Of a stretch of 43,602 bases of DNA, positions 6,611-36,533 are shown one piece after another (positions within the stretch are counted from its first letter, which is position 1; every line of letters starts with the position of its first letter). The notes beneath the pieces were generated by a model. It was not told the DNA's origin. It worked only from the letters and a program-made list of their open reading frames with translations, and made no database searches. Both the position numbers and the translations under genes were made by a program. The DNA is from a virus (taxonomy: Duplodnaviria > Heunggongvirae > Uroviricota > Caudoviricetes): positions 1-43,602 of the IMG/VR virus record IMGVR_UViG_2541047812_000007; one strand, written 5' to 3'.

Positions 6611-6625
6611 TTACCTTTCAGGTAA
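6611..6625. promoter_or_regulatory. Palindromic operator-like site TTACCTTTCAGGTAA
   Basis: Perfect TTACC-N5-GGTAA inverted repeat; identical 15-mer recurs at 26205-26219. Confidence 0.4.
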
Positions 6626-6662
6626 TTTGCAAAACGTGCTGGATAGCAAACAAATTATTTGC

Positions 6663-6682
6663 TACTGTATAAATATACAGTT
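6663..6682. promoter_or_regulatory. LexA (SOS) box
   Basis: TACTGTATAAATATACAGTT, a CTGT-N8-ACAG palindrome two mismatches from the LexA consensus, about 20 nt upstream of the ATG at 6702. Confidence 0.7.
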
Positions 6683-6701
6683 ATTGCATGGAGAAGATAA
6701 G

Positions 6702-6959
6702 ATGCAGCAGTATCACTATCCACTGGAAGACGGATTTACCGAAAGGATTCACACGCCGGGAGGCGTCAGGTCACTGGTGGAGGGATCGCACTTGATGAAA
6801 TTACTCCGGGATCTCGATAAGGATGGATTTAATGTCGATGGCCCACTTGCCGAACTGACTGCACTGATTAACTACGTCACCAGCTCACAGATGTCTATGC
6901 AGGATCTGCAAACACATCTCGACTATTGTGCCGAACAATTACGAAAACAAACCAGATAA
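6702..6959 (+). CDS. Small (85 aa) antirepressor-domain protein, predicted SOS-inducible
   Basis: SD GGAGAAG 5 nt before ATG; protein aligns with the shared C-terminal domain of the three larger antirepressors (HSPSGV / HTPGGV, DIQTHAEY / DLQTHLDY). Start moved from ORF-track 6579 to 6702. Confidence 0.6.
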   Translation: MQQYHYPLEDGFTERIHTPGGVRSLVEGSHLMKLLRDLDKDGFNVDGPLAELTALINYVTSSQMSMQDLQTHLDYCAEQLRKQTR

Positions 6960-6962
6960 GAT

Positions 6963-6991
6963 TTGAAATTACCAATAGGAGTGCTTATATT
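6963..6991 (+). promoter_or_regulatory. Sigma70-like promoter TTGAAA-17bp-TATATT
   Basis: Near-consensus -35 and -10 with 17-bp spacer; predicted start site falls inside the operator-like palindrome at 6991-7005. Confidence 0.5.
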
Positions 6992-7005
6992 TACCTTTGC
7001 GGTAA
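6991..7005. promoter_or_regulatory. Palindromic operator-like site TTACCTTTGCGGTAA
   Basis: TTACC-N5-GGTAA inverted repeat overlapping the promoter -10 and start site. Confidence 0.4.
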
Positions 7006-7118
7006 ATTTACATCGCACTCCTCTTGTGCCATAGTAATCGGGCACTGGCAAAATCCAGTGCCGGGATTGGCGTCCCGGATTACTAAAAGGCGCATTCACC
7101 GCGCAAGCGGTTTTTTTA
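6998..7118 (+). ncRNA. Candidate small RNA or terminated leader (about 120 nt)
   Basis: Runs from the predicted promoter to an intrinsic terminator (ACCGC-gcaa-GCGGT plus T7 at 7098-7118); contains nested GC-rich hairpins; the overlapping ORFs have no SD and poor context. Confidence 0.3.
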
Positions 7119-7274
7119 TGCGTATAGCACGGCCACATTCGTATTATGGTGGGCTGTGTGGGGGCACCGAAAGGTGCGCCGGGTCCTTTTAGCCGGTTAC
7201 GCCAACCCTGCACAGTTCACCACCAACCGATTGGCGTCGGTAGTGGTGATTAACCAGACTAAAAGGTAACCACT

Positions 7275-7970
7275 ATGACAGCTACAAAAAGCACGTCCAT
7301 TTTTTCTTTCGAATCCCAAGCCGATATACGGGTAATCGTCATTAATGGTGAGCCATGGTTTATCGCTTCAGATGTTTGTCGGGCTATAGGCATAGCAAAC
7401 CATCGAGATGCTGTTCGAAAACTTGATGATGATGAGAAGGGCGTCGCTTCAACCGACACCCCTGGCGGTGAGCAAGAATCGATCATCATCTCCGAGTCAG
7501 GCCTCTACACACTGATCCTCCGCTGCCGCGACGCAGTGACACCAGGCACTATCCCCTACCGCTTTCGTAAATGGGTTACAGGTGAGGTTCTTCCTCAGAT
7601 CCGCCGCACCGGAAGTTACATTAAAAACTCGCTCCCGCAGGAAGAACGCATAAAGATGGTTGCCGACCAGGTAGCCAGCGCCACAGCATCAGCAGTGATG
7701 CAGGCAATGAAGGTAGAGAACAAAACCTACAGCGCCCCGCTGAAGCCCGGCTACCGCAGCCTGATTCACTCGCCGTCTGGTGTTCTCGGCCTGACGGAGA
7801 ACTCACTGCTGATGAATCTGCTGAACCAGTTACAGGACGACGGGCACGACGTATCGGGCGCGGCGGCGGAGCTGACCACCATGTTCTGCTACATCGTCGG
7901 TGTGAGCAAATGCCTGCGTGATATCCAGACCCACGCGGAGTACATCAACGACAAGGCAGGGTTCTTCTGA
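7275..7970 (+). CDS. Antirepressor, Bro-N N-terminal domain plus shared antirepressor C-terminal domain
   Basis: N-terminus has the Bro-N pattern (IRVIVINGEPWFIASDVCRAIG); C-terminal ~80 aa nearly identical to the C-termini of 9088-10026 and 41668-42318. Confidence 0.8.
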   Translation: MTATKSTSIFSFESQADIRVIVINGEPWFIASDVCRAIGIANHRDAVRKLDDDEKGVASTDTPGGEQESIIISESGLYTLILRCRDAVTPGTIPYRFRKWVTGEVLPQIRRTGSYIKNSLPQEERIKMVADQVASATASAVMQAMKVENKTYSAPLKPGYRSLIHSPSGVLGLTENSLLMNLLNQLQDDGHDVSGAAAELTTMFCYIVGVSKCLRDIQTHAEYINDKAGFF

Positions 7971-7993
7971 CGGCGGCGGCACAGGGACGTGCC
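7729..7993 (+). repeat. Copy 1 of a ~260-bp near-identical repeat (antirepressor 3' end plus ~25 bp)
   Basis: Over 95% identical by eye to 42073-42341 (direct) and to 9064-9318 (inverted). Confidence 0.8.
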
Positions 7994-8040
7994 TTTAAAT
8001 AATTCTGTACGATTGCAGACTGGGGGTGAATAGCGTACTA

Positions 8041-8055
8041 TTACCCCAAAGGTAA
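8041..8055. promoter_or_regulatory. Palindromic operator-like site TTACCCCAAAGGTAA
   Basis: TTACC-N5-GGTAA inverted repeat about 120 bp upstream of the 8173 cassette. Confidence 0.4.
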
Positions 8056-8172
8056 GAAAGTTGATTTGTAACATTTTAGTTTGTAGTTACCGTGATGGTT
8101 TTGCTGCAGAAAGTTAACTAGTCAAAATCACACCGTATGTAAGTCACGTCTGTTCCCGTATGGGAGGATGAT

Positions 8173-8391
8173 ATGTTTAAATTTGATATGCAACTTAACC
8201 AAAACTATGCCTCTTTTTACCATCCAGAAACTGGTAAAGCTGTTTTCGTTGACTCTTTCGATAATGAAGAATTTGATATCAGAATTGGGACCCTACGCCA
8301 AAGTAAGCATGTTGCTACTGTACGTGCATCCAATGATGATGAATTAAATCAAAAAATAAGTGAGGCGACCTCCCGTTATCTATGTCTATAA
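8173..8391 (+). CDS. Hypothetical protein (72 aa), first gene of an AT-rich two-gene moron
   Basis: Strong SD GGGAGG 6 nt before ATG; low GC relative to surrounding phage DNA; no family recognised. Confidence 0.6.
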   Translation: MFKFDMQLNQNYASFYHPETGKAVFVDSFDNEEFDIRIGTLRQSKHVATVRASNDDELNQKISEATSRYLCL

Positions 8392-8759
8392 CAGAACAAC
8401 AACTCATTGATCTTGAGGATGAGATTAACGAGATCTTGCAAGAAGATGCGGCAAGAATTCACTTTTCATTTCACGCAGCATATGAACGCCTGAACGACGA
8501 GAGGAACAAACCGCCAATTACTCTTGCTGAGCTTGAAGATGTGTTTAAATCGTTTATATCTGCACATCTGCAGACTGTTTTGGATTTTGCTGAAGGTACA
8601 ACTTTCACCATAAAGTGCAACAAAAGCGCCCTTCATTTTCCTTGCGCCATTGTACACGAAAGAGAGTTTGGGAAAACGTGGGTTATCCAAAACGTCATTA
8701 CAGCCATGAGGAAAGTGGGATTCAAGTCTAAAGATTCTATTATCCTCGAAGTTAATTAA
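8382..8759 (+). CDS. Hypothetical protein (125 aa), second gene of the AT-rich moron
   Basis: Start overlaps upstream stop by 10 nt (translational coupling); followed directly by an intrinsic terminator; no family recognised. Confidence 0.6.
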   Translation: MSITEQQLIDLEDEINEILQEDAARIHFSFHAAYERLNDERNKPPITLAELEDVFKSFISAHLQTVLDFAEGTTFTIKCNKSALHFPCAIVHEREFGKTWVIQNVITAMRKVGFKSKDSIILEVN

Positions 8760-8780
8760 GCCCGCAGCGCGGGCTTTTTT
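8760..8780 (+). terminator. Rho-independent terminator
   Basis: GCCCGC-agc-GCGGGC followed by TTTTTT immediately after the stop at 8759. Confidence 0.65.
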
Positions 8781-8852
8781 GTGGACGAAACAAAAGTCAG
8801 TGCTACACTCATTGACGCCACATTGAGGTGGCTTATAGATGGAAATTTCACA

Positions 8853-9014
8853 ATGAAAAAAGCATTTGCTGCACTGTTCGTTTTGTTGTCTCTGGTAGCT
8901 TCAACTCAGGCCTTTGCCGGTCGTTGTCAGCACGACAGCGATACTGCCGCTGACGGCTCCCGCTGCGGTGGGCGTTCTGCGGATTCCCGCCCGGGTGGCG
9001 GTGGCATTCGTTAA
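8853..9014 (+). CDS. Small secreted peptide (53 aa), hypothetical
   Basis: Signal peptide MKKAFAALFVLLSLVASTQAFA; plausible promoter TTGACG-16-TATAGA upstream; weak SD. ORF-track start 8781 replaced by the internal ATG. Confidence 0.4.
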   Translation: MKKAFAALFVLLSLVASTQAFAGRCQHDSDTAADGSRCGGRSADSRPGGGGIR

Positions 9015-9036
9015 AAACAAGGCCGCGAAAGCGGCC
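9012..9036 (-). terminator. Terminator for the minus-strand antirepressor gene
   Basis: Hairpin GGCCGC-gaaa-GCGGCC (9021-9036); on the minus strand it is followed by a U-rich tract. Confidence 0.5.
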
Positions 9037-9063
9037 TGTGACATGTCACGCTAGTTTCGTTTT

Positions 9064-9318
9064 GCACGTCCCTGTGCCGCCGTTCTGTCAGAAGAACCCT
9101 GCCTTGTCGTTGATGTATTCCGCGTGCGTCTGGATATCACGCAGGCATTTGCTCACACCAACGATGTAGCAGAACATGGTGGTCAGCTCCGCCGCCGCGC
9201 CCGATACATCGTGCCCGTCTTCCTGTAACTGGTTCAGCAGATTCATCAGCAGTGAGTTCTCCGTCAGGCCGAGAACACCCGACGGCGAATGAATCAGACT
9301 GCGGTAGCCTGGCTTCAA
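9064..9318 (-). repeat. Copy 2 (inverted) of the ~260-bp antirepressor 3' repeat
   Basis: Reverse complement aligns with 7729-7993 and 42073-42341 with few substitutions. Confidence 0.8.
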
Positions 9319-10026
9319 TGGATAACCATAACATTTTGTCTGTGTTTTAATTGCCTCACGAAGCGCATCTAACATCTTGACTGCCACTTCATCATTCTCT
9401 GATGCAGATCCAGCAGGGAGATACTCCCCTTCAAGCGGAACCCGAGCAACAAGAGACAACGCTTCGGCAAATTGATCTTCACCAATTTCTTTGTACGAAC
9501 AGCCAAAATGAGATTTCAGTGACGACCACATGGTGATCATCGCCTTAGCCTGTTTTTCTTTTGGCAGAGACTGACCGCGACTCATGACGAGTTGTTTAAT
9601 GGCTTCCTGCTGTTCAGTTGTTATTTTACCCGGCAACGCCTTTTTAGCTTTGCGTGGGTTAACCACATGGCCTTTAGTCCAGTACTCGTAGAGCACATCG
9701 TCACACTCTTCCTGATACTGGATTACCTTGTCGCGGATTTCAGGGCGGACTTTGTTAGGGCTGATGCTGTTCAACCAAGCTGCCAATTTTCGTAAAGCCA
9801 TACAAATCATGGCTTGCACCCCACCGGCAGAAGGTATGGTGATTTCCACCATACCCTTCGAGAAGCGTTGAGAAATCTTCTTATGTTGAGATTTCCAGTC
9901 TAGCCCCATTCCCTCAACGATAGGTTTCATTGGGGTATACGGTTCGCCGTTGTGATTGACAACATAAAGCTCTGCGCCGTGGAATGGCACGTTGATAGTA
10001 GATACTGCTGTTGCTATACTCGTCAT
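9088..10026 (-). CDS. Antirepressor (ant-like), distinct N-terminal domain plus shared C-terminal domain
   Basis: 312 aa; SD AGGA before ATG; sits downstream of an Arc-like gene as in P22 immI; C-terminus shared with the other antirepressors. Confidence 0.8.
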   Translation of the reverse strand: MTSIATAVSTINVPFHGAELYVVNHNGEPYTPMKPIVEGMGLDWKSQHKKISQRFSKGMVEITIPSAGGVQAMICMALRKLAAWLNSISPNKVRPEIRDKVIQYQEECDDVLYEYWTKGHVVNPRKAKKALPGKITTEQQEAIKQLVMSRGQSLPKEKQAKAMITMWSSLKSHFGCSYKEIGEDQFAEALSLVARVPLEGEYLPAGSASENDEVAVKMLDALREAIKTQTKCYGYPLKPGYRSLIHSPSGVLGLTENSLLMNLLNQLQEDGHDVSGAAAELTTMFCYIVGVSKCLRDIQTHAEYINDKAGFF

Positions 10027-10098
10027 GTCGTTAATTCCTATACGTAGTTTTACGATACTGAAGCCCTGACGGTCTGGCCACCGTGGGGCTTCGCTGTT

Positions 10099-10266
10099 TT
10101 ATGCCACGCTATTCTTCTCACCAGTGAGTCCATACACTTTCCTCAGCTGATAGATAATCTCTGTATTGAACTTTCGGCATTCTTTTTCGCCATTTCTTTC
10201 AATAGCTAACTTCACATCGTCCGGAAAACGAACTCGTCGTTGACACATCTCTTTTGCTTTTTGCAT
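10099..10266 (-). CDS. Arc-like ribbon-helix-helix repressor
   Basis: 55 aa from internal ATG with SD AAGGAG 7 nt upstream; resembles P22 Arc (RFPDDVKLAIERNG...NTEIIYQLRK). Confidence 0.6.
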   Translation of the reverse strand: MQKAKEMCQRRVRFPDDVKLAIERNGEKECRKFNTEIIYQLRKVYGLTGEKNSVA

Positions 10267-10280
10267 TTCATATCTCCTTA

Positions 10281-10295
10281 GCCCCACCGTGGGGC
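10281..10295. promoter_or_regulatory. Palindrome GCCCCACCGTGGGGC upstream of the arc-like gene
   Basis: Inverted repeat next to the arc SD; core CCACCGTGG recurs at 10078-10086 and 29359-29367. Confidence 0.35.
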
Positions 10296-10386
10296 AAAAT
10301 AATTGTCACACCGTGCGTCATTGATGTCAAGCACACGGTGAGGCATACTTCAATCATTGCAAGTAACTCAATATTTGGTGAAGAAC

Positions 10387-10818
10387 ATGAGCAGAGAAGA
10401 TCCACAACTAAGGATCAGACTTCCCGTCGAAGTAAAAGAAAAAATAGAAATTTCTGCAAAAGCCAATAAGCGATCAATGAACGCTGAAATAGTACAACGT
10501 CTTGACACCAGCTTTCTGAAAGATATTCATGAAGATGACGTAATTTCTGCTTATGAAGCAAAAATCATTGCAAACAATGCACGACATGAAATATCAAATA
10601 TTATTTTCAAAAGAACCTTTAATGAAATTAATAAGAAAATAACACTTGGACATACAAGTTTTTATATAAACCTTAATGACCTTGAACTGGAATCACTTGC
10701 AGATAATGATTACCAGATCATCTTTGAAAAAACATTTAATAGGCTCAATGAACTAGGTTACATCATCTGTGAAAACTCATGGGATGCAGATGGTTTTGGA
10801 ATTGAAATACCTGAATAG
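10387..10818 (+). CDS. Mnt-like ribbon-helix-helix regulator with a ~95-aa C-terminal extension
   Basis: N-terminus resembles P22 Mnt/Arc (LRIRLPVEVKEKIEISAKANKRSMNAEIVQRL); divergent from arc/ant; AT-rich C-terminal domain of unknown family. Confidence 0.6.
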   Translation: MSREDPQLRIRLPVEVKEKIEISAKANKRSMNAEIVQRLDTSFLKDIHEDDVISAYEAKIIANNARHEISNIIFKRTFNEINKKITLGHTSFYINLNDLELESLADNDYQIIFEKTFNRLNELGYIICENSWDADGFGIEIPE

Positions 10819-10831
10819 GAAGAACAAAAGG

Positions 10832-10848
10832 CGTGTACATATTACACG
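10832..10848. promoter_or_regulatory. Perfect palindrome CGTGTA-CATAT-TACACG
   Basis: 17-bp inverted repeat between the mnt-like gene and the membrane protein gene. Confidence 0.3.
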
Positions 10849-10908
10849 TCTTTAATACAATTGAAAAACGCCACATTACTGATGTATGTTACAACAAGGA
10901 GCGATATT

Positions 10909-11472
10909 TTGAAAACCATATCTATATTAAAGGTTGCATTAGGCGTCGCTATTATTTTGACTCTCTCAATATTGTTTTATTTTTACCACAAACAAACTGC
11001 TATTGCTCTTGATAGTCACGCGGCAAACTCATTTTTCTCAGAGTACATAGTGCCGCTATCAGGAAGCGGTATAACAAATAAATATACTGACTATGACATC
11101 AAATATGGAATTGATGATGGGGAGACTATTGTATTACATGTAATCATTAAAAACCTAATGACAGTAAATAAAAATACAGACTTCAACGATAAAAATACAA
11201 TACATCACAACAACAGCAAAACATTAATTTCTTATAGTAGCAACATCTATACGGATAAATACCTAAAATACATATCAGAAGATACAATAAAAGAAACCCG
11301 CGAAAAGTTAAAAAACATATATTGTGCATCCGGCAGTTTTCACAAATTATCGCCGCAAGAGCGTTTATTCTACGAAGCAAGAAAACAACGTAAGTCAATA
11401 ATATTACATTATTATGCTGATTCAGGGGAGACACTCATATTTAATATTGGGGTTTCCCCTGAATCATGCTAA
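10909..11472 (+). CDS. AT-rich membrane-anchored protein, candidate superinfection-exclusion moron
   Basis: TTG start 7 nt after strong SD AAGGAG (ORF-track start 10861 also TTG); N-terminal TM helix; roughly 33% GC; occupies the position of sieA in P22-type maps. Confidence 0.55.
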   Translation: MKTISILKVALGVAIILTLSILFYFYHKQTAIALDSHAANSFFSEYIVPLSGSGITNKYTDYDIKYGIDDGETIVLHVIIKNLMTVNKNTDFNDKNTIHHNNSKTLISYSSNIYTDKYLKYISEDTIKETREKLKNIYCASGSFHKLSPQERLFYEARKQRKSIILHYYADSGETLIFNIGVSPESC

Positions 11473-11483
11473 AGGTGTTTAAC

Positions 11484-21731: not shown

Positions 21732-21732
21732 C

Positions 21733-26114: not shown

Positions 26115-26204
26115 ATCAATGACTCCGTACGCAATTAAATTATTACCAATTTAACCACATATGATTTATTTATCGTAGACAGTTGACATTTAACGCGCGA
26201 ATTA

Positions 26205-26219
26205 TTACCTTTCAGGTAA
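26205..26219. promoter_or_regulatory. Palindromic operator-like site TTACCTTTCAGGTAA
   Basis: Identical to the 6611 site; 16 bp downstream of a TTGACA hexamer. Confidence 0.4.
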
Positions 26220-26811: not shown

Positions 26812-26822
26812 AAGGTGAGATT

Positions 26823-27197: not shown

Positions 27198-27217
27198 CAC
27201 CGTGACATATCACAAAC

Positions 27218-27245
27218 AGCCAGCCTATGAGCTGGCTTTGTTTTA
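27218..27245. terminator. Bidirectional hairpin between the island gene and terL
   Basis: AGCCAGC-ctatga-GCTGGCT with T-rich tracts on both sides. Confidence 0.5.
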
Positions 27246-27287
27246 TCCTCATCAGAGGATATCAACAACATTATCCCCTCAAGCGGA

Positions 27288-28763: not shown

Positions 28764-29356
28764 TGATTGCCATCCTGACGTTCTTTCAGTCTCTTCCTGG
28801 CTGCCGCTATGCGATCAGCAATTGTCACATTCACATTAACATCCAGGCGTTCTTTGAATGCGTTGACGTCGACGTGCTTACCAATCAGTTCGAGGTTCTT
28901 CACCTTGTCAGGCCATTTAATTTTTTTGAGGATTGTCTCTATCGAATCCTCGTTCATGTTCATGATGGTCGATGACAGATCAAAGCCACTAAGCGTAGTG
29001 CGCCAGATTTTCGGCCACTCGCGGATTGGCTTAAGGCTCCCATCGTCGTTGAGGATGTCGATCACGTCCATCTGGTCGATCTCCACCAGGCGCATGAGAA
29101 CGTAATCAGCACTGACGCGCATTCGTTTGTTGCGCTCTTCCATCAGCTCGGCAATCCGTTTTTGAATGCGTTCATCGCGCATCATGAGACTGGCTTTAAC
29201 TGCCGCTGTATTTGGGGAGAATCCTGCGTTAATCGCAGCCTGAGTCTGGTTTTCAGGCGTTTGGATGTATGACTGGCAATAAGCCTCCTGCATTGCTGTT
29301 AGTGGCTTAAATTGCGTTGATTTGCGTTTATAGGTTTTAGGTTCAGCAGGCATCAT
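28760..29356 (-). CDS. terS: Terminase small subunit
   Basis: N-terminal pattern LTAMQEAYCQSYIQTPENQTQAAINAGFS typical of small terminase HTH; start set at ATG 29356 rather than the TTG ORF-track start at 29434. Confidence 0.7.
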   Translation of the reverse strand: MMPAEPKTYKRKSTQFKPLTAMQEAYCQSYIQTPENQTQAAINAGFSPNTAAVKASLMMRDERIQKRIAELMEERNKRMRVSADYVLMRLVEIDQMDVIDILNDDGSLKPIREWPKIWRTTLSGFDLSSTIMNMNEDSIETILKKIKWPDKVKNLELIGKHVDVNAFKERLDVNVNVTIADRIAAARKRLKERQDGNQ

Positions 29357-29363
29357 AACCACC

Positions 29364-29395
29364 GTGGTAATAGTTACCGTTGTGGTAATAGTACC
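29364..29395. repeat. Tandem direct repeat GTGGTAATAGT(T)ACC x2 just upstream of terS
   Basis: Two copies (29364-29378, 29382-29395); core CCACCGTGG at 29359-29367. Confidence 0.5.
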
Positions 29396-29430
29396 ATGCA
29401 AAATAAAGCCGCCATAGTTGGCGGCAGTAT

Positions 29431-29643
29431 TCAAAGTCCATCAAATTCATCGTAAAAACTCTCGTCAAGATACCCTTCCCATTTACCGCGAATGAAAATT
29501 ACATCCTCGCCGCAAGGGTGCTGACTGTCGATAACTATATCCCTCCTGGCGCAACCATACTTATGCATGAGAAATTTAACCTCTTTCGGAAAATTTGCTG
29601 AGTTATCTCTCATATCTTCAAGGTCGTAGCGTATTTTTGGCAT
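29431..29643 (-). CDS. Hypothetical small protein
   Basis: ORF with ambiguous start (GTG 29664 or ATG 29643). Confidence 0.4.
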   Translation of the reverse strand: MPKIRYDLEDMRDNSANFPKEVKFLMHKYGCARRDIVIDSQHPCGEDVIFIRGKWEGYLDESFYDEFDGL

Positions 29644-29660
29644 AACACCTTCGTGACATG

Positions 29661-30002: not shown

Positions 30003-30273
30003 TATTCACCTTTATCGCGAACACCTTTACCGGTTTATCACCGAAGTGCGGATGTGTGATTGTCTTGATTTCATATCCACCATACGGAACATCAATTCTG
30101 CGACTGGAATCGTCGCGCTTCGGATATCCCTTTGTGATAATCAGGCGGTCATATTCCCGGAACATAATTCGCTTATTCCAGTAGTCATTGCACAGGCGAT
30201 ACTCTTCCGTTTTCTCCCCGCGAATCATGGCATCGAAGTATTCACCTTTGACGGCAAGTTGTAGGTTAGCCAC
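29992..30273 (-). CDS. Hypothetical nin-region protein (93 aa)
   Basis: ORF with short overlaps to neighbours. Confidence 0.5.
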   Translation of the reverse strand: MANLQLAVKGEYFDAMIRGEKTEEYRLCNDYWNKRIMFREYDRLIITKGYPKRDDSSRRIDVPYGGYEIKTITHPHFGDKPVKVFAIKVNIDG

Positions 30274-31159: not shown

Positions 31160-31160
31160 A

Positions 31161-31349
31161 TCACTCTCCTTTAGTGCGAAAGTGGTTTTTCCAGCGGTTT
31201 TGCGCCGCGCTGGGCTTTTTGCAAAAACCACAATCCATCATCCCGTAATGTTTCATTAACCCCATCCGTCGGTTGCTGAGTCTCACCCACTGCCAGACGC
31301 CAGGAGCGTTTCTACGAACTAACAGAATCTTTGCTTTACGGTTTTTCAT
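31161..31349 (-). CDS. Small basic protein (62 aa), third of three coupled small ORFs
   Basis: Begins MKNRKAK; ATGA overlap with the upstream small ORF. Confidence 0.4.
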   Translation of the reverse strand: MKNRKAKILLVRRNAPGVWQWVRLSNRRMGLMKHYGMMDCGFCKKPSAAQNRWKNHFRTKGE

Positions 31350-31522
31350 CTTACAGCGTACCCTTTCTTCCGCCTGTTCTGTGACGCAGTAGGCTTACGC
31401 TTTGCGGCAAAAGCCACCTGACCAAATGGATGGAGTACCGCTATCTTATGGTTGCTAATAACCAGCTCCACCACACGCACAGGTCGCTGTAAAAAAAGTC
31501 GTTTTGCCTTACGGTTTTTCAT
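31346..31522 (-). CDS. Small basic protein (58 aa), second of three
   Basis: Begins MKNRKAK; SD AGGAG; ATGA overlap; below the ORF-track size cutoff. Confidence 0.4.
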   Translation of the reverse strand: MKNRKAKRLFLQRPVRVVELVISNHKIAVLHPFGQVAFAAKRKPTASQNRRKKGYAVR

Positions 31523-31695
31523 CGCTTTGCTCTCCTGCGTCTCTTTGCTGCTCGTCGTGCCGCTGCAATACCGGTATGGCGGCGCTTTGGTGACGGGATG
31601 ATGTTGTCAGCCATCAGTACATGTGGCTTTGCAATTAGCGCAGAAGCCCAAAAACGAGTCGGGTACGGTAACAAGCCGATACATGCCACACGCAT
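31519..31695 (-). CDS. Small basic protein (58 aa), first of three
   Basis: Strong SD AGGAGG 7 nt before ATG; TAATG overlap with the upstream gene; C-terminus AKRRRRAKR. Confidence 0.4.
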   Translation of the reverse strand: MRVACIGLLPYPTRFWASALIAKPHVLMADNIIPSPKRRHTGIAAARRAAKRRRRAKR

Positions 31696-32288
31696 TACTC
31701 ACCTCCTTTGATGCGAATGCCAGCGGTGCGTGGCACATTAACTTCCACGATGCGCACAGTTGGTTTGTACATCTCAATCGCTGTCAGCCAGTCAGCGCCA
31801 GTCATGCGCTTTTCTGCATCGCCATTAGTCCAATTAACCGGTACACCAATAGCCTTCATCGCGATTTCTATTTCCCCGGCAATGGCGCTTTTTCCGCAAC
31901 CAGTAAAACCAGATACAACGACCAGAACTTCACCTTTGGCTGGTTTTATTTCCCGCGCTTCCAGTTCTGCTATGCGCTTACTTCCATCCGAGATAACACC
32001 TTCGTAATACTCACGCTGCTCGTTGAGTTTTGATTTTGTCTCCTCAAGCTCAACTCTCAGCTTCCCTACCGTTAGCGCAATATCCTCGTTCTCCTGGTCG
32101 CGGCGTTTGATGTATTGCTGGTTTCTTTCCAGTTCATCCAGCAGTGCCAGCGCGATATCTGGCGAAAAGTGCTTCATAAAATCGTTAAGCGCATTAATTC
32201 GCTGATCGAAGGGCATTACAGGTGCTTCACCAGCAATTTTTGTTTTTTCAGCGATTTCACGAAGCTTTTGATAATCAATCTTGCTCAC
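31695..32288 (-). CDS. Hypothetical coiled-coil protein (197 aa)
   Basis: Coiled-coil middle section; possibly Ead/Ea22-like, not verifiable here. Confidence 0.55.
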   Translation of the reverse strand: MSKIDYQKLREIAEKTKIAGEAPVMPFDQRINALNDFMKHFSPDIALALLDELERNQQYIKRRDQENEDIALTVGKLRVELEETKSKLNEQREYYEGVISDGSKRIAELEAREIKPAKGEVLVVVSGFTGCGKSAIAGEIEIAMKAIGVPVNWTNGDAEKRMTGADWLTAIEMYKPTVRIVEVNVPRTAGIRIKGGE

Positions 32289-32986
32289 TGGTTGCCTCCT
32301 TTGCGAAGCTGGGCAGCAAAGTCAACTAACCACTCAGTCATTTCAACCTTCCCTACCAGGTCTGAACCAGGGTGCATACAGCAATCACTCTGCGCCGCTT
32401 TGAAATCCTTATACTCATATTCTTGGGCCACCAGATTTTTTGCAGCTTCTATAGCAGCATCCACGCCCTGCGCCCGCACTTCAGCCAGGCATTTGCGAAA
32501 CTCGGAAACGTACTGTTCGACGCTCATTCCCCAGCTAAGTGGACATTCATTGAATGTTTCGCCTTCGTGCTCTTCATCAGGTAGCTCTTTGGTAAAGAAC
32601 TCACGTTCAATGGCGTGGAGTGTGTCAGCAAAACGACGTAAGTTACTCAAACCTGTCGTAATGGAGAATTCAGGAGCATCACATCCGACGCCCATCTGCT
32701 GATAAACGGCGGTTTTGAAGGCCTTCAGCCCCGCATTCTCCGCCGCCAACGCCGAAAACTTCTCGTGTGCCAACTTAACAGCCGCATCAGCCTGCTTAAT
32801 TGACTCAATCGCTTTCTGCTGGTCTTCGGCCAGCGCATTAGCACGCACCAGTTGCACTTCCAGTTGCGTTGCCAAATCGCTGATCAGCTTTGCCACACTG
32901 CGCATATCAACGGCACCACATTCTGCTTTCAGTTCCGAAGCCATCTCATGCCCGGCGGAAACTAACCCTTTGATATTACTTTCCAT
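32285..32986 (-). CDS. Hypothetical coiled-coil protein (233 aa)
   Basis: ORF with 4-nt overlap to the downstream gene. Confidence 0.55.
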   Translation of the reverse strand: MESNIKGLVSAGHEMASELKAECGAVDMRSVAKLISDLATQLEVQLVRANALAEDQQKAIESIKQADAAVKLAHEKFSALAAENAGLKAFKTAVYQQMGVGCDAPEFSITTGLSNLRRFADTLHAIEREFFTKELPDEEHEGETFNECPLSWGMSVEQYVSEFRKCLAEVRAQGVDAAIEAAKNLVAQEYEYKDFKAAQSDCCMHPGSDLVGKVEMTEWLVDFAAQLRKGGNQ

Positions 32987-33047
32987 CTTTACCCTCGCTT
33001 ATCCACATAACTTATTGATTACATTGATAACTAAAAAGATCGTCGAT

Positions 33048-33392
33048 TCAGAACTCTTCGATGTTCCAGCCGCCACCTGCTTTCTTTGGTTTAACCGTTA
33101 CCCCGATTATTCGGAACGGATACTGATCTGCGGCGACTTTTGTTTTCACTCTGGCGTCGTCGGTCCAGAAACCTTTCACTTCGTGCAGTTCCATCTCGCC
33201 GGTAGCGAGCATCACAGCAAAATCGGGCGTATAGAACGTGTTGTCAGCTAACCGCAGCTTGATACCCTCGAATCGATACCAAGCGATTTCCCCTGCACGT
33301 TTACGCTGCTCAAGGTGCTGGCAATACGCAGATTCTGTTTTGTTCATCTGGCCTGTTTTGAGTCGACCAAGAGCCTGTATCTGTTTTCTCAT
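33048..33392 (-). CDS. Putative PD-(D/E)XK-type nuclease (114 aa)
   Basis: Motif YTPDF...ELHEVKG consistent with a PD-(D/E)xK site. Confidence 0.5.
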   Translation of the reverse strand: MRKQIQALGRLKTGQMNKTESAYCQHLEQRKRAGEIAWYRFEGIKLRLADNTFYTPDFAVMLATGEMELHEVKGFWTDDARVKTKVAADQYPFRIIGVTVKPKKAGGGWNIEEF

Positions 33393-33395
33393 GAT

Positions 33396-33472
33396 TTACC
33401 TCTGAGGTAATTAAAAACCACATAAGACACGAAATCAATAGATTTTAGAATATTTTATTACCCATCAGGTAA
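33396..33472. promoter_or_regulatory. Two palindromic operator-like sites
   Basis: TTACCTCTGAGGTAA (33396-33410) and TTACCCATCAGGTAA (33458-33472) in the 117-bp gap between the P-like gene and the nuclease gene. Confidence 0.4.
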
Positions 33473-33509
33473 TCATTGAGACGTAAAAAAATGCGCTATC
33501 GCGCTGGTA

Positions 33510-34286
33510 TTACTTGATAAATCCTGCCGCCTTTCCCCGCCTGTATTCCTCCATCAGCCACTGCGCCGGTGTTATTCCCCCTAGGGTGGCGGCGTTAGGC
33601 ATGCACCCGAAACTTCGCCCTGGTGGATGGTAAACGTCTCTCCCTGTGTCCGGAGGTGTACTCATGGGCTCTGGCTTTGCCTGTATGCTGATCACCGGAT
33701 CGGGTATCTGCTGTCCGGAAGCCACCTTTTTCGCCCAATCATCGAGCAGCCTGCGCGCGTGTTTCTCAACCTCACTCTCGCTAAGCTGGCGCTGATACAT
33801 TGCACGACGGGTATCACATACGACCCAGTACATAACCGGATGCCGCCACGGGAATCTTTCGGGACCACCAGGATATAAACTTTTTTCCTTGCTGTACCGG
33901 TGAAACTCCGCCATCACATCGTCAATGGTGACGCCAAGAACCATCTTGCTGTCTTTGCACCACTTGATGAATTGCCCTGGCGACGGCCAGAACGGAGATT
34001 CACTGGCGCGGGCGTGGCGCATACCAGCGTTAACCTGTTCCATTGTAGTGATCCCATTCTCCAGAAACGCAAGCATCCATTGCTTACGGAATTCATTAAG
34101 TTTGTTCTGCTCACTTATGGTCGAAACGCTTGCAGGAAATGCAGCCTGTAACTGGACAAATAGTTCATTGAAAATTCTAGCAACCTGCTCCTTTTTGCCA
34201 TTGCTGTCACGCCGCTCTTCATGCACAGCAACACCATGCTCACGTAAGCGATCGTACTCATTGAGAAGTTCTGGAGTTGATTTCAT
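33510..34286 (-). CDS. Replication protein P-like (helicase loader)
   Basis: Blocks RKQWMLAFLENGITTMEQVNAGMRHAR and FPAS match lambda P as recalled. Confidence 0.8.
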   Translation of the reverse strand: MKSTPELLNEYDRLREHGVAVHEERRDSNGKKEQVARIFNELFVQLQAAFPASVSTISEQNKLNEFRKQWMLAFLENGITTMEQVNAGMRHARASESPFWPSPGQFIKWCKDSKMVLGVTIDDVMAEFHRYSKEKSLYPGGPERFPWRHPVMYWVVCDTRRAMYQRQLSESEVEKHARRLLDDWAKKVASGQQIPDPVISIQAKPEPMSTPPDTGRDVYHPPGRSFGCMPNAATLGGITPAQWLMEEYRRGKAAGFIK

Positions 34287-35088
34287 CCCACACCCCTTCT
34301 ATCCAGTCAGTGTTATTCCAGTCAAGCCCATCGCTTTTCCCGGCATTTTTTGATTTTCCCCTGATATGATTTACGTGCCTGGCGAATTTTTGTTCCCACT
34401 GAACCTGCGTGAACACTTTGCCCTCAGCCATCCAGTAATCCCGGAATGCAGCAAGTTCAGCAGGTGTAAATTCCGGTTCCGGCAGGGCCGTTCCCCACAG
34501 CGCAGCACGCCGCCGAAAATCTGGCGACGGTAGCCAGCCATCTGTCATCGGAAATTTCCCGATGGGTTCACTCAGGCCATCCAGAAATTCAGGTTCTGCC
34601 ACCTGCAACGGCGTACTGTTCGCTTCACTGGTCGGAGCACCCTCGCGCACGTGCGCTATGTGTGGGGTTTTATATATATCTTCCTCTTCCTCTTCCTCTG
34701 GTAACTCCTTTTGTAACGCTGTTGGCGTTACTTTTTGCGTTACTCGTTTTCGATGCTCTGCCACTCTTCTATTCGTAAGTGCACGTTTTTTCGATGATTC
34801 TCCATTGTGTCGCTCAAAGTTTGGAAGAATTAGTTTGCCGTCATGATAAGCAAGCCATCCGACGCTAATGAGGGCGTCAGCAAATCCTGTAATAAAAGCG
34901 AGTCTATCAAGTACTCCTTTTGTAACGCTGCCAGCGTTACCGTCTATTGTTTGCTGGTCAGCCCATGCCCATATACGAACCAGCTTTCCAAGAACAGCAT
35001 CTGGATCAATACCCAGAATTTCTGCTATCTGAAAAATTTCAGGTTTATCAGGAGTGATAACTTCAACCTTAATCCAGCTGCTTGCCAT
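34258..35088 (-). CDS. Replication initiator O-like
   Basis: Immediately upstream of the P-like gene; acidic linker; start set at internal ATG 35088 after SD. Confidence 0.65.
   Translation of the reverse strand: MASSWIKVEVITPDKPEIFQIAEILGIDPDAVLGKLVRIWAWADQQTIDGNAGSVTKGVLDRLAFITGFADALISVGWLAYHDGKLILPNFERHNGESSKKRALTNRRVAEHRKRVTQKVTPTALQKELPEEEEEEDIYKTPHIAHVREGAPTSEANSTPLQVAEPEFLDGLSEPIGKFPMTDGWLPSPDFRRRAALWGTALPEPEFTPAELAAFRDYWMAEGKVFTQVQWEQKFARHVNHIRGKSKNAGKSDGLDWNNTDWIEGVWDEINSRTSQ
34705..34940. repeat. Candidate replication origin: two iteron-like inverted repeats with an AT-rich stretch, inside the O-like gene
   Basis: CTCCTTTTGTAACGCTGTTGGCGTTAC (34705-34731) and ACTCCTTTTGTAACGCTGCCAGCGTTAC (34912-34940), plus a TATATATA run near 34665. 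Confidence 0.35.
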
Positions 35089-35281
35089 AGGTTTCCCCTC
35101 TTGCACTCTTTAGTGCACAAGCAAATTCATTACGATGGCGGTTGGCGCTATTCATTGCACATTCAACACATGTTCCGTTCAGAACATACCTTTCAGAGAG
35201 ATGGCCGTGACGGCACCGCTTTCCTGTGAAATAGCGATTTAACCCGGCTTTTGCGGCCTCCATTCTGGTTACTATCTTCAA
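35069..35281 (-). CDS. Small zinc-ribbon-like protein (70 aa)
   Basis: Cys/His cluster CRHGH...CVEC; lies between the cro-like gene and the O-like gene. Confidence 0.45.
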   Translation of the reverse strand: MKIVTRMEAAKAGLNRYFTGKRCRHGHLSERYVLNGTCVECAMNSANRHRNEFACALKSARGETYGKQLD

Positions 35282-35358
35282 TTTTTCCGCCCCTTTTTGT
35301 TATTGATATTGGCTATTTTGCACAATTGGAAAATTTGATCAACCAGATTTGGTTTTTT

Positions 35359-35373
35359 ATTACCTTTGAGGTA
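35359..35373. promoter_or_regulatory. Operator-like site TTACCTTTGAGGTAC
   Basis: 14/15 match to TTACC-N5-GGTAA. Confidence 0.35.
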
Positions 35374-35429
35374 CGAATAGATATGAAAAGACCGCCGGGT
35401 GGCGGTCTACAGAGGGTTGTAGCTGGATA

Positions 35430-35660
35430 TCATGAGTAGAAGAAGTATGCCAGTTCTGCTTTTGAGCGCAGCCATTGTCTTGTTTTACAGGCTTTAAAAA
35501 GCCCATTCATCAATACCTTACCTGGCATTTTGCGCTTGCCTGTTAAGTGAGTCTGGATATAGTGACTCGTCGTTCCGGCTTCCTGTGCGAAGGCTTCACG
35601 CTCATCCGGAGTAAGTGCAAGCCAGTGCTTTTTGAAATCGAAATGTCCGTTATCGCTCAT
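35430..35660 (-). CDS. Cro-like small HTH regulator
   Basis: 76 aa, divergent from the repressor gene across the operator cluster. Confidence 0.55.
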   Translation of the reverse strand: MSDNGHFDFKKHWLALTPDEREAFAQEAGTTSHYIQTHLTGKRKMPGKVLMNGLFKACKTRQWLRSKAELAYFFYS

Positions 35661-35695
35661 AGCTATTGCCTGATATTTATTTCAGATAATAAATA

Positions 35696-35759
35696 TTCAC
35701 CCATAAGGTAACAAAAATCAAGGATGGTTACCTATGAGGTGCATTTACCTGTTGGGTAA
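35696..35759. promoter_or_regulatory. Tripartite operator cluster in the divergent cro/repressor intergenic region
   Basis: TCACCCATAAGGTAA (35696-35710), TTACCTATGAGGTGC (35728-35742), TTACCTGTTGGGTAA (35745-35759). Confidence 0.5.
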
Positions 35760-35814
35760 TATTGCTTTAAATTGAATCATCTACTGATTCATATATGAGG
35801 CGATTTTCCAGAAA

Positions 35815-36399
35815 ATGAAAAGTATCCAGGACGTCCGCAGGCAAAATCTCAACGACTTGATCGACCGTGAATTCAATGGTGTTCAGACGCGGATGGCAGA
35901 AAAACTTGGAACTCAGGCAAATCTGGTAAACCGCTGGGCTCTTGGCAAGAAGGTTATCGGCGACCAGGTTGCGCGAAAAATTGAAGCTGCCGCCAATAAA
36001 CCCCGTAACTGGCTTGATATCGATCGCTCGCTTTCTCAGGAAGGTTTTCAGCCTGTCGGCCCAAGCGACATTGGTCAGCTGGCGGCTCACAACCTGGAAC
36101 GCTGGATGAGCGAAAGCCGCGACCTTTCAACACAGGGAAAACTTCACCGCGCATCCGGCGTCGCCCAGGTGACAATCAGCCGCCTGTTAAACAATGAGGT
36201 CAGCGTTTCCATTTCCACCCTGGAGAATGTTGCATCCGCATTCGGGCGTCACGGATATGAACTACTGATTCACCCGCACGACCCTGCGACTATCAACTAT
36301 GACCGCTCACGCTACGCATTGTTACCCGAAACCGAGAAAGCAAAGATCGAAAGTTACATTGAATTTGTCATCAACCAGAACGAAAAAAGCAAACAATAA
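35815..36399 (+). CDS. Prophage repressor with two HTH motifs and no peptidase domain
   Basis: 194 aa; two XRE-type HTH segments; no S24-like autocleavage motifs seen in the C-terminal part. Confidence 0.7.
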   Translation: MKSIQDVRRQNLNDLIDREFNGVQTRMAEKLGTQANLVNRWALGKKVIGDQVARKIEAAANKPRNWLDIDRSLSQEGFQPVGPSDIGQLAAHNLERWMSESRDLSTQGKLHRASGVAQVTISRLLNNEVSVSISTLENVASAFGRHGYELLIHPHDPATINYDRSRYALLPETEKAKIESYIEFVINQNEKSKQ

Positions 36400-36419
36400 A
36401 ACTATATTTTTCAGTAAGT

Positions 36420-36446
36420 AAGCCGCCTCATGGCGGCTTTTTTATT
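36420..36446 (+). terminator. Rho-independent terminator after the repressor gene
   Basis: AAGCCGCC-tcat-GGCGGCTT followed by TTTTTATT. Confidence 0.7.
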
Positions 36447-36456
36447 GCCATCAAGA

Positions 36457-36533
36457 TTACCTTATGGGTAATTTTTTTAACTCATATCTATTGACATCAA
36501 ACCAAATACGCATAATCATTACCTCAACGGTAA
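36457..36533 (+). promoter_or_regulatory. Early promoter region with two operator-like palindromes (PL-like)
   Basis: TTACCTTATGGGTAA (36457-36471), TTGACA at 36491-36496, CATAAT near 36511, TTACCTCAACGGTAA (36519-36533). Confidence 0.45.

What the first reader, a model, noticed from the sequence alone, without database searches (positions are those of the whole stretch)
6611..36533. A 15-bp palindrome TTACC-N5-GGTAA sits at 12 regulatory positions across the prophage
Sites: 6611, 6991, 8041, 26205, 33396, 33458, 35359, 35696, 35728, 35745, 36457, 36519. Three are clustered between the divergent cro-like and repressor genes, two flank the rightward early promoter, and the rest lie upstream of morons: the SOS antirepressor, the putative sRNA, the 8173 cassette and the tRNA island. 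The 6611 and 26205 sites are the identical 15-mer. This looks like one DNA-binding protein, most plausibly the tandem-HTH repressor at 35815-36399, controlling both immunity promoters and dispersed accessory promoters, reminiscent of P1 C1 dispersed operators. I do not recognise the motif as a known host operator.
Basis: seen in the sequence. Interest (0 to 1): 0.75.

Follow-up and report, generated by a model that had tools for sequence, protein, structure and literature searches.

The report
Dispersed repressor operators in a prophage
The repeated 15-bp palindrome is real and is almost certainly the binding site of the prophage's own repressor, which sits on nearly every promoter of this epsilon15/phiV10-type E. 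coli prophage; the same sites are already annotated as repressor sites in phage epsilon15, so this is a well-supported but largely known feature.

Summary
TTACC-N5-GGTAA occurs 10 times exactly (0.01 expected) and 13 times with at most one mismatch (0.75 expected). A 14th, two-mismatch copy lies at 35728. All copies fall in the 9% of the window that is non-coding.

The window is a Uetakevirus (epsilon15/phiV10-like) prophage. The motif sits at syntenic positions in phiV10, Tyrion, a Klebsiella phage, epsilon15 and SPC32H. The epsilon15 RefSeq record already labels these sites "protein_bind: repressor".

The 194-aa protein at 35815-36399 is a full-length homologue of SPC32H Rep (PDB 5D50). The 85-aa gene at 6702-6959, behind a LexA box, is 88% identical to SPC32H Ant.

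At five promoters the operator starts on the last T of the -10 hexamer. Two of these promoters also have an upstream partner exactly 62 bp away. In 78 related loci that spacing never changes, while the central 5 bp vary freely.

More distant repressors that share Rep's N-terminal domain have operators whose half-sites co-vary with the recognition helix. This points to Rep rather than the Cro-like protein.

It is a new member of a known kind, of modest interest.

The parts
6611..6625 (.). Operator, exact (TTACCTTTCAGGTAA). It lies in the divergent region between the tailspike gene (start 6506, - strand) and ant (6702, + strand). It is centred about 63 bp upstream of the predicted ant transcription start.
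   Evidence: It is syntenic in 6 genomes.
6663..6682 (+). LexA (SOS) box TACTGTATAAATATACAGTT, overlapping the predicted ant promoter.
   Evidence: The CTGT-N8-ACAG core is conserved in alignment A8.
6702..6959 (+). Small antirepressor Ant (85 aa), 88% identical to SPC32H Ant.
6991..7005 (.). Operator, exact. It starts on the last T of the -10 hexamer of promoter TTGAAA-17-TATATT (6963-6991, + strand), which drives isrK, C4 and the BRO-N gene.
7042..7117 (+). isrK-family Hfq-binding sRNA, in the transcription unit downstream of the 6991 operator.
   Evidence: 77.9 bits.
7142..7227 (+). C4-family antisense RNA, in the same transcription unit.
   Evidence: 77.7 bits.
7275..7970 (+). BRO-N domain protein (second antirepressor-type gene), last in the unit downstream of the 6991 operator.
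   Evidence: Pfam Bro-N, E 2.5e-21.
8041..8055 (.). Operator, exact, just upstream of a TTGATT -35-like hexamer (8061-8066) ahead of the 8173-9014 cassette. A weak 2-mismatch partner lies at 8087-8101. The cassette and the site are absent from phiV10 and epsilon15.
26205..26219 (.). Operator, exact. It starts on the last T of the -10 hexamer of TAGACA-18-AATTAT (26176-26205, + strand), which points toward the tRNA-Arg island. The divergent - strand unit is the gp3-to-structural-genes operon.
29356..29370 (.). Operator with one mismatch, immediately upstream of the corrected terS start (ATG at 29353 or 29356, - strand).
29374..29388 (.). Operator, exact. On the - strand it begins on the last T of an extended -10 element, TGgTACTAT (29396-29388).
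   Evidence: The same pair is present in phiV10, Tyrion and epsilon15.
33396..33410 (.). Operator, exact: downstream member of a 62-bp pair. On the - strand it begins on the last T of TTGATT-17-TTTAAT (33438-33410), directly before the DUF1064 gene ATG at 33392.
33458..33472 (.). Operator, exact: upstream member of the 62-bp pair. It lies just after the terminator that follows the replication gene P.
35360..35374 (.). Operator with one mismatch, just downstream of the cro terminator (35408-35389, - strand). Its role is unresolved.
   Evidence: It is syntenic in phiV10, Tyrion and the Klebsiella phage.
35430..35660 (-). Cro-like 76-aa protein, 76% identical to epsilon15 gp39. It is a possible second reader of the operators.
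35697..35711 (.). O1, one mismatch. It lies inside the core of the predicted cro promoter TTGTTA-17-TATTAT (35714-35686, - strand).
35728..35742 (.). O2, two mismatches. Its position is conserved in all 6 genomes.
   Evidence: (12.2 bits).
35745..35759 (.). O3, exact. It overlaps the -35 region of candidate rep promoters.
35815..36399 (+). Rep, the prophage repressor (194 aa). It is a homologue of SPC32H Rep and has no Peptidase_S24 domain.
   Evidence: The ZX5 repressor, 99.5% identical, blocks lytic transcription when overexpressed (PMC9782041).
36457..36471 (.). Operator, exact: upstream member of a 62-bp pair, just after the rep terminator (36420-36439).
36519..36533 (.). Operator, exact. 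It starts on the last T of the -10 hexamer of TTGACA-17-AATCAT (36491-36519, + strand), the early promoter of the recombination-gene operon.

Best explanation
The TTACC-N5-GGTAA sites are the operators of the prophage repressor Rep (35815-36399). Rep is a homologue of the tetrameric Rep of Salmonella phage SPC32H. Each 15-bp palindrome is read by a pair of Rep N-terminal helix-turn-helix domains.

At five promoters the operator begins on the last T of the -10 hexamer, so bound Rep covers about -7 to +8 and blocks RNA polymerase. These promoters serve:
- the early operon at 36519
- the DUF1064 operon at 33410
- the isrK/C4/BRO-N unit at 6991
- the tRNA island at 26205
- terS at 29388

At two of these promoters a second operator lies exactly 62 bp upstream (about six helical turns). 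This would let one tetramer hold both sites and clamp the promoter. Three operators between rep and the cro-like gene form the switch itself. Rep therefore directly silences most transcription units of the prophage.

Induction does not go through Rep cleavage. Rep has no S24 peptidase domain. Instead it goes through the LexA-controlled small antirepressor Ant (6702-6959).

Shown here: the sites, their enrichment, their geometry, their conservation and the homologies. Inferred: that Rep binds them, that pairs are bridged by one tetramer, and which promoter each single site controls.
For: Enrichment and location
- 10 exact sites against 0.01 expected; 13 against 0.75 at one mismatch or fewer.
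- All sites are non-coding.
- Host DNA shows no enrichment.

Synteny and prior annotation
- Sites are syntenic in phiV10, a second E. coli prophage, Tyrion, Klebsiella BUCT711, epsilon15 and SPC32H.
- The epsilon15 RefSeq record annotates seven of them as protein_bind 'repressor'.

The proteins
- Rep matches SPC32H Rep (5D50) over its full length, E 3.5e-42. That protein is described as a tetramer that binds palindromic sites (PMC9638917; PMC9986798).
- The Rep N-terminal domain is its most conserved part: 53-54% identity to the epsilon15/SPC32H and Klebsiella Reps, against 32-37% for the middle domain.
- Ant is 88% identical to SPC32H Ant, and a LexA box is present.
- Overexpressing the 99.5%-identical ZX5 repressor cuts holin and endolysin transcripts by more than 99.9% (PMC9782041).

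Geometry
- The geometry is described in the statement above.
- It is conserved in the alignments, while the central 5 bp vary.
- In 78 distinct IMG/VR loci, spacing is 62 bp in 150 of 150 cases and 48 bp in 78 of 78. There are 52 different centres and fixed half-sites.

Covariation pointing to Rep
- Repressors sharing Rep's N-terminal domain but with other C-termini have these operators: TTACC-N4-GGTAA (PseuP_224, an S24-type cI), TAACC-N4-GGTAA (JBD68), TAACC-N5-GGTTA (Turba) and TTTAGT...ACTAAA (an Acinetobacter phage).
- The half-sites track changes in the recognition helix.
- The PseuP_224 Cro has no detectable similarity to this window's Cro-like protein.
Against: - There is no binding experiment for this phage. 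The two SPC32H papers that might define the operator biochemically (J Virol 2013; PNAS 2016) are not held in the library.
- The Cro-like protein is also conserved genus-wide. It is a weak homologue of the Rep N-terminal domain, so it may bind the same sites.
- Several single sites do not overlap a clear promoter: 6611, 35360 and 8041. The 6611 site is centred about 63 bp upstream of the ant start. From my memory of Kim & Ryu 2013, which I could not read, a LexA-box point mutation alone makes Ant constitutive in SPC32N. If so, Rep at that site cannot silence ant on its own.
- The -10 hexamer of the DUF1064 promoter (TTTAAT) lacks the usual A at position 2.
- The covariation set is small: four outgroup phages.
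Confidence: 0.8

Rival explanations
1. The sites are read mainly by the 76-aa Cro-like protein (35430-35660), acting as a lytic-phase regulator, and not by Rep.
For: - The Cro-like protein is conserved genus-wide, at 58-84% identity.
- It is divergent from rep across the three-operator region.
- It has weak similarity to the Rep N-terminal HTH, E 0.001.
- In lambda-type switches, Cro and CI share operators (established knowledge).
Against: - TTACC-type half-sites follow Rep-N-terminal-domain homologues into phages whose Cro has no detectable similarity to this one.
- Operators placed over -10/+1 of nearly all units fit a maintenance repressor.
- Rep overexpression silences lytic genes in ZX5.
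- Shared binding by both proteins is likely and is compatible with the best explanation. Only the exclusive form of this rival is disfavoured.
Confidence: 0.1
2. The sites bind another factor. Candidates are a host transcription factor or a different phage regulator: the Arc-domain protein at 10357-10818, the AlpA-like protein or the PerC-like protein.
For: - Binding has not been tested.
- The prophage encodes several other DNA-binding proteins.
Against: - The Arc-domain module is absent from phiV10 and epsilon15, which keep the full site set.
- The motif is not enriched in 50 kb of host DNA.
- It is conserved in phages of four host genera.
- No paper in the searchable library mentions the motif as a host operator.
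- The three-site cluster lies exactly between rep and cro.
Confidence: 0.05
3. The sites are Rep operators, but the single sites at 6611 and 26205 (and the lysis-unit site seen in phiV10) serve the divergent late promoters for tailspike, the gp3 operon and lysis. They do not serve the accessory promoters (ant, tRNA, oac) that the first reader named.
For: - Each of these sites lies 67-79 bp upstream of a conserved late-type element, TATGTGGTT-N7-TAATAA or TATAAT, on the late-gene strand.
- epsilon15's annotators placed the repressor features in front of gp3 and gp20.
- 6611 does not overlap the ant core promoter.
Against: - At 26205 the operator has the exact -10-overlap geometry toward the tRNA side.
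- A position near -70 does not occlude RNA polymerase by itself.
- No transcription start data are available.
Confidence: 0.4

Closest known systems
Repressor-binding sites annotated in Salmonella phage epsilon15 (RefSeq NC_004775; Kropinski et al. 2007)
   Same: - The same TTACC-N5-GGTAA palindrome (17 bp with the flanking A/T).
- The same syntenic positions: before terS, before gp3, between gp19 (ant) and the tail-fibre gene, downstream of rep, and after the replication genes.
- The same 62-bp pairs.
   Different: - The Rep here is only 43% identical overall.
- This prophage adds sites that epsilon15 lacks: 6991 before isrK/C4/BRO-N and 8041 before an extra cassette.
- It lacks the site before the lysis unit.
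- The epsilon15 record does not annotate the three rep-cro sites.
SPC32H Rep-Ant antirepression system (Kim & Ryu 2013; Kim et al. 2016; PDB 5D50, 5D4Z)
   Same: - A full-length Rep homologue.
- Ant is 88% identical.
- A LexA box lies at ant.
- Rep has no S24 domain.
- SPC32H carries 10 exact copies of the same motif.
   Different: - This is an E. coli host with a K1 endosialidase tailspike.
- Two further antirepressor modules are present.
- I could not read the SPC32H papers, so I cannot say which operators were tested there.
P1 C1 repressor with dispersed operators, including Op51 before the c4-icd-ant (immI) operon
   Same: - One repressor acts at many scattered operators across the genome.
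- One operator sits at the promoter of a unit made of a C4-family antisense RNA plus an antirepressor gene.
   Different: - P1 operators are asymmetric 17-mers read by a monomeric, unrelated C1 protein (established knowledge).
- Here the sites are palindromes read by an XRE/Cro-type HTH.
- This is an analogue, not a family member.
Lambda CI/Cro switch (OR1-3, OL1-3)
   Same: - Divergent rep and cro genes with three operators between them.
- A second operator cluster on the other side of rep.
- The cooperative, looping logic is plausible here too.
   Different: - No RecA-stimulated self-cleavage domain.
- Nine or more operator loci, including late units.
- Operator pairs 62 bp apart flank a promoter rather than forming adjacent triplets.
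Mycobacteriophage L5 gp71 'stoperators'
   Same: Many copies of one repressor site are spread over the genome and silence the prophage globally.
   Different: - Stoperators are asymmetric, orientation-dependent, and lie within transcribed regions to stall elongation (established knowledge).
- Here the sites are symmetric and promoter-associated.

Membership tests
Uetakevirus (epsilon15/SPC32H-type) Rep operator regulon | A repressor homologous to SPC32H/epsilon15 Rep over its full length, with an N-terminal DNA-binding domain, a middle domain and a C-terminal tetramerisation/Ant-binding domain. | tested here: met
   E 3.5e-42 over residues 1-190. Alignment A1.
Uetakevirus (epsilon15/SPC32H-type) Rep operator regulon | The TTACC-N5-GGTAA palindrome at the positions annotated as repressor sites in epsilon15. 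| tested here: met
Uetakevirus (epsilon15/SPC32H-type) Rep operator regulon | A small antirepressor Ant under a LexA box, and no self-cleavage domain in Rep. | tested here: met
Uetakevirus (epsilon15/SPC32H-type) Rep operator regulon | Physical binding of Rep to these sites. | not testable with these tools
The SPC32H papers are not held. Indirect support comes from covariation.
P1 C1 / dispersed-operator immunity | A repressor homologous to P1 C1. | tested here: not met
   Pfam shows only HTH_3/XRE-type and YdaS-type matches. The nearest solved structure is SPC32H Rep.
P1 C1 / dispersed-operator immunity | An asymmetric 17-bp operator. | tested here: not met
   The sites are perfect two-fold palindromes.
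P1 C1 / dispersed-operator immunity | A repressor operator at the promoter of a C4 antisense RNA plus antirepressor operon. | tested here: met
   The 6991 operator lies at the -10 of a promoter followed by isrK, C4 and the BRO-N gene. This is a resemblance in wiring only.
Lambda-type CI/Cro switch | Three operators between divergent repressor and cro genes. | tested here: met
   35697, 35728 and 35745, conserved in 6 genomes.
Lambda-type CI/Cro switch | A repressor with a Peptidase_S24 self-cleavage domain, induced by RecA. | tested here: not met
   No S24 match in Rep. By contrast, the PseuP_224 cI, which shares the N-terminal domain, has one.

The most novel reading that the evidence does not exclude
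One p53-like tetrameric repressor directly gates essentially every transcription unit of a podovirus prophage. These include the early, replication, packaging and late units, a tRNA island, and two of its three antirepressor modules.

It would do this through a fixed promoter 'clamp': one operator on -10/+1 plus a partner exactly 62 bp upstream.

The operator code is frozen across Uetakeviruses of four host genera, even though Rep has diverged to 43% identity. Newly acquired cassettes, such as the one behind 8041 and the isrK/C4/BRO-N unit, come under control by carrying the same operator. This would be a P1-like global-repression strategy that evolved independently.
Probability: 0.4. Interest if true: 0.5.

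Novelty: new member of a known kind. Interest (0 to 1): 0.3.

Why it matters
**Practical use**
- The result gives a complete, testable operator map for a very common family of E. coli prophages. More than 320 relatives were found in IMG/VR. This one carries a K1-capsule endosialidase.
- It corrects the terS start that is propagated in phiV10-type annotations.

**What it suggests about the system**
- The SPC32H Rep-Ant system, studied structurally, probably controls about nine loci rather than one switch region.
- The invariant 62-bp operator pairs give a concrete geometric constraint for models of how the Rep tetramer engages DNA.

**Limits**
- None of this overturns current understanding.
- The motif was already marked as a repressor site in epsilon15.

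Tried and rejected
**Literature**
- I tried to read the three key papers: Kropinski 2007 (PMC2698709), Kim & Ryu 2013 (PMC3807360) and Kim 2016 (PMC4983836, and by DOI). None is held.
- Full-text searches for the motif string found nothing.
- Papers that cite SPC32H give no operator sequence.

**Covariation within the genus**
- I hoped to find Uetakeviruses with a different immunity specificity, so as to test covariation inside the genus.
- All four Rep clades (E. coli, Enterobacter, Klebsiella, Salmonella) use the same motif.
- The IMG/VR scan returned only 99-100% identical repressors.
- Covariation therefore had to come from more distant homologues of the N-terminal domain.

**Ideas dropped**
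- I considered whether immunity diversity resides in the Rep-Ant interface. I rejected this because Ant is 84-88% identical across clades.
- I considered whether the terS sites were coding-sequence coincidences. I rejected this because the annotated 27-aa N-terminal extension is absent from homologues and is simply the translation of the operators.
- The hit for a second palindrome at 35716 is probably just the -35 hexamer of the cro promoter.
- I could not identify convincing - strand sigma-70 promoters next to 6611 or 35360 by inspection.

Full report
**What the window is.** The window is an integrated Uetakevirus prophage of the epsilon15/phiV10 type.
- Its immunity and replication region is 97-99% identical to phages HEMP4, ZX5, TL-2011b and phiV10.
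- A closely related prophage sits at guaA in E. coli FDAARGOS_1302, and its PGAP annotation served as a gene map.
- The late genes run on the - strand from terS (about 29353) down to the lysis genes (1268). They include an endosialidase tailspike (3387-6506).
- rep (35815-36399, + strand) and a cro-like gene (35430-35660, - strand) are divergent.

**Check of the observation.** The motif is real and far above chance.
- TTACCNNNNNGGTAA occurs 10 times exactly, against 0.01 expected. It occurs 13 times with one mismatch or fewer, against 0.75 expected.
One site has two mismatches (35728). Two sites were missed (29374, exact; 29356, one mismatch).
- An unbiased count of all palindromes with 5-bp arms puts TTACC/5 far ahead of everything else. 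The same holds in phiV10 and SPC32H but not in host DNA.
- A weight matrix trained only on relatives' sites recovers 12 window sites at 15 bits or more (0.1 expected). It also scores 35728 at 12.2 bits and 29356 at 10.3 bits.
- All 13 sites lie in the 9.2% of the window that is non-coding (P about 4e-14).
- This count depends on correcting terS. The annotated 27-residue N-terminal extension (MNTAANYGGFILHGTITTTVTITTVVM) is missing from the Tyrion, epsilon15 and SPC32H homologues. It is simply the operators read as codons.
- Fifty kilobases of host chromosome contain no exact site and two one-mismatch sites, both inside genes, which is what chance predicts.

**Conservation.** The sites are syntenic across the genus, and their spacing is fixed.
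- The motif occupies the same positions in phiV10, the FDAARGOS_1302 prophage, Enterobacter phage Tyrion, Klebsiella phage BUCT711, epsilon15 and SPC32H.
- Those positions are: a pair before terS; one site before gp3; one between ant and the tailspike gene; three between rep and cro; one after the cro terminator; a 62-bp pair downstream of rep; and a 62-bp pair between the replication genes and the DUF1064 gene.
- There is also a one-mismatch site upstream of int. By synteny it falls about 40 bp beyond the right end of this window.
- Alignments show invariant half-sites, variable centres, and conserved -35 and -10 elements between the paired sites.
- In 78 distinct IMG/VR loci that carry a 99-100% identical Rep, neighbouring sites are always 62 bp apart (150 of 150) or 48 bp apart (78 of 78). 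The exact sites carry 52 different central pentamers.
- Selection therefore acts on the half-sites and on the spacing, not on the centre. The middle base pair is A or T in 98 of 106 symmetrised sites.

**Anatomy relative to promoters.** At five promoters the operator starts on the last T of the -10 hexamer.
- The three + strand cases, each a sigma-70-like promoter, are:
  - TTGACA-17-AATCAT at 36491-36519
  - TTGAAA-17-TATATT at 6963-6991
  - TAGACA-18-AATTAT at 26176-26205
- On the - strand the same geometry holds for TTGATT-17-TTTAAT before DUF1064 (33438-33410). It also holds for an extended -10 element, TGgTACTAT, before terS (29396-29388).
- In all five cases the operator covers roughly -7 to +8.
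- At the 36519 and 33410 promoters a second operator lies 62 bp upstream, about 5.9 helical turns and so on the same face of the DNA. It sits just after the terminator of the preceding unit.
- In the rep-cro region, O1 (35697) lies within the core of the predicted cro promoter (TTGTTA-17-TATTAT). O3 (35745) overlaps the -35 region of candidate rep promoters. O2 (35728) lies 17 bp from O3 and 31 bp from O1.

**What lies downstream of the 'accessory' sites.**
- Site 6611 precedes a near-consensus LexA box (6663-6682) and an 85-aa gene that is 88% identical to the SPC32H antirepressor Ant. The operator is centred about 63 bp upstream of the likely ant start. That is the position of an upstream partner site, with the LexA box where the downstream operator would be.
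- Site 6991 drives a unit made of an isrK-family sRNA (7042-7117), a C4-family antisense RNA (7142-7227) and a BRO-N gene. This wiring recalls the P1 immI operon.
- Site 8041 precedes a cassette of unknown function that phiV10 and epsilon15 lack.
- Site 26205 faces a tRNA-Arg island.

**Who binds.**
- The 194-aa protein matches SPC32H Rep (PDB 5D50) over its whole length. That protein is described as a tetramer with an N-terminal DNA-binding domain, a middle dimerisation domain and a p53-like C-terminal tetramerisation/Ant-binding domain. It binds palindromic sites using domain pairs drawn from different dimers (PMC9638917; PMC9986798).
- The N-terminal domain is the best-conserved part of Rep across the genus. 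This fits the shared operator.
- Overexpressing the 99.5%-identical ZX5 repressor abolishes free phage. It also lowers endolysin and holin transcripts by 99.97-99.99% (PMC9782041).
- The epsilon15 RefSeq record already marks seven of these palindromes as 'protein_bind: repressor; lysogeny'.
- The Cro-like protein is an alternative or additional reader. It is conserved and weakly related to the Rep N-terminal domain.
- To separate the two, I looked at more distant homologues of the Rep N-terminal domain:

| Phage | Repressor features | Operator found near the repressor gene |
|---|---|---|
| Pseudomonas phage PseuP_224 | cI shares the domain (E 1e-12) but has a Peptidase_S24 C-terminus. Its divergent Cro has no detectable similarity to this window's Cro. 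| TTACC-N4-GGTAA, three exact copies in 6.2 kb |
| JBD68 | Shares the N-terminal domain | TAACC-N4-GGTAA |
| Turba | Shares the N-terminal domain | TAACC-N5-GGTTA |
| Acinetobacter phage MD-2021a | Shares the domain but has a different recognition helix | TTTAGT...ACTAAA |

- The half-site therefore follows the Rep-type recognition helix. Four phages is a small sample, but the result points to Rep.

**Mechanism proposed.** In the lysogen, Rep tetramers occupy the operators. Where an operator overlaps -10/+1, they exclude RNA polymerase. The 62-bp pairs probably let one tetramer hold both sites around a promoter. After DNA damage, LexA cleavage releases ant, and Ant then dismantles Rep from DNA, as shown for SPC32H. 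All units are then derepressed together.
- Shown here: the sequence features and the homologies.
- Inferred: the binding, the bridging of operator pairs, and which promoter each single site controls.
- Sites 6611 and 26205 (and a lysis-unit site present in phiV10 and epsilon15) lie in divergent regions. On the late-gene strand these regions also carry a conserved element, TATGTGGTT-N7-TAATAA or TATAAT. These sites may therefore act on late promoters, on accessory promoters, or on both.

**Comparison with known systems and verdict.** This is the Rep operator set of the epsilon15/SPC32H family, in an E. coli member.
- It works like P1 C1, with dispersed operators that include one at a C4-antirepressor unit, but it is not related to it.
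- It resembles lambda in its three-operator switch, but it lacks self-cleavage and has many more operator loci.
- Novelty is low, because the motif is already annotated as a repressor site in a public record.
- The added value here consists of:
  - the full site map
  - the fixed -10-overlap and 62-bp geometry
  - the terS correction
  - the extra sites at newly acquired modules
  - the outgroup covariation

Noticed in passing
window 7042-7227, with the BRO-N gene at 7275-7970: An isrK-family sRNA (77.9 bits) and a C4-family antisense RNA (77.7 bits) lie in tandem between the 6991 operator/promoter and a BRO-N antirepressor-type gene. This layout resembles P1 immI and the Gifsy-1 isrK locus.
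   Followed up: partly
window 9088-10818: A second, P22 immI-like module is present. It has a P22_AR_N antirepressor (9088-10026, - strand), a sar antisense RNA hit (10028-10095, 44.8 bits) and an Arc-domain protein (10357-10818). Together with Ant and the BRO-N unit, the prophage carries three antirepressor-type modules. No TTACC-N5-GGTAA site lies in this module.
   Followed up: partly
window 29351-29434 (- strand): The terS start in phiV10 and in PGAP-style annotation is 27 codons too long. Homologues begin at MPAEPK (ATG at 29353 or 29356). The extension 'TITTTVTITTVV' is the two operators read as codons.
   Followed up: yes
window 6571-6579, 26153-26161 and 33416-33424 (all - strand); 3141-3149 with one mismatch: TATGTGGTT occurs three times exactly, always on the late-gene strand and upstream of a - strand unit: tailspike, gp3 and DUF1064. 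A one-mismatch copy lies before the holin gene. Upstream of gp3 it sits in a block of about 50 bp conserved in all six genomes. In relatives it is often followed after 7 bp by TATAAT-like hexamers. It is a candidate late-promoter or activator element.
   Followed up: partly
window 35341-35354, 6571-6584 and 26153-26166; Tyrion L006 26452, 34215 and 35385: A second palindrome, AACCA-N4-TGGTT, is modestly enriched: 8 matches at one mismatch or fewer, against 1.6 expected. It lies next to several Rep operators. An exact copy sits 5 bp from the 35360 site. It could be the site of a second regulator. It overlaps the TATGTGGTT element.
   Followed up: partly
window 3387-6506 (- strand): The tailspike is annotated in the close relative as containing an endosialidase catalytic beta-propeller domain. 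This suggests a K1-capsule-specific Uetakevirus prophage.
   Followed up: no
L001 41573-41587; equivalent position just beyond window 43602: A conserved one-mismatch site (TTACCnTAAAGGTAT) lies about 43 bp upstream of int in every genome examined. The operator set therefore extends just outside the window.
   Followed up: partly
L088 (PseuP_224) 2922, 2961 and 3823; L090 (JBD68) 2428 and 4498; L089 (Turba) 2427 and 3254: Repressors of Pseudomonas phages that share the Rep N-terminal domain have related palindromes near their genes, with 4- or 5-bp centres: TTACC-N4-GGTAA, TAACC-N4-GGTAA and TAACC-N5-GGTTA. This is an operator family wider than Uetakevirus.
   Followed up: partly
window 41538-41627 (+ strand): An Rfam match to sRNA-Xcc1 (64.8 bits) lies near the integrase-proximal end of the prophage.
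   Followed up: no
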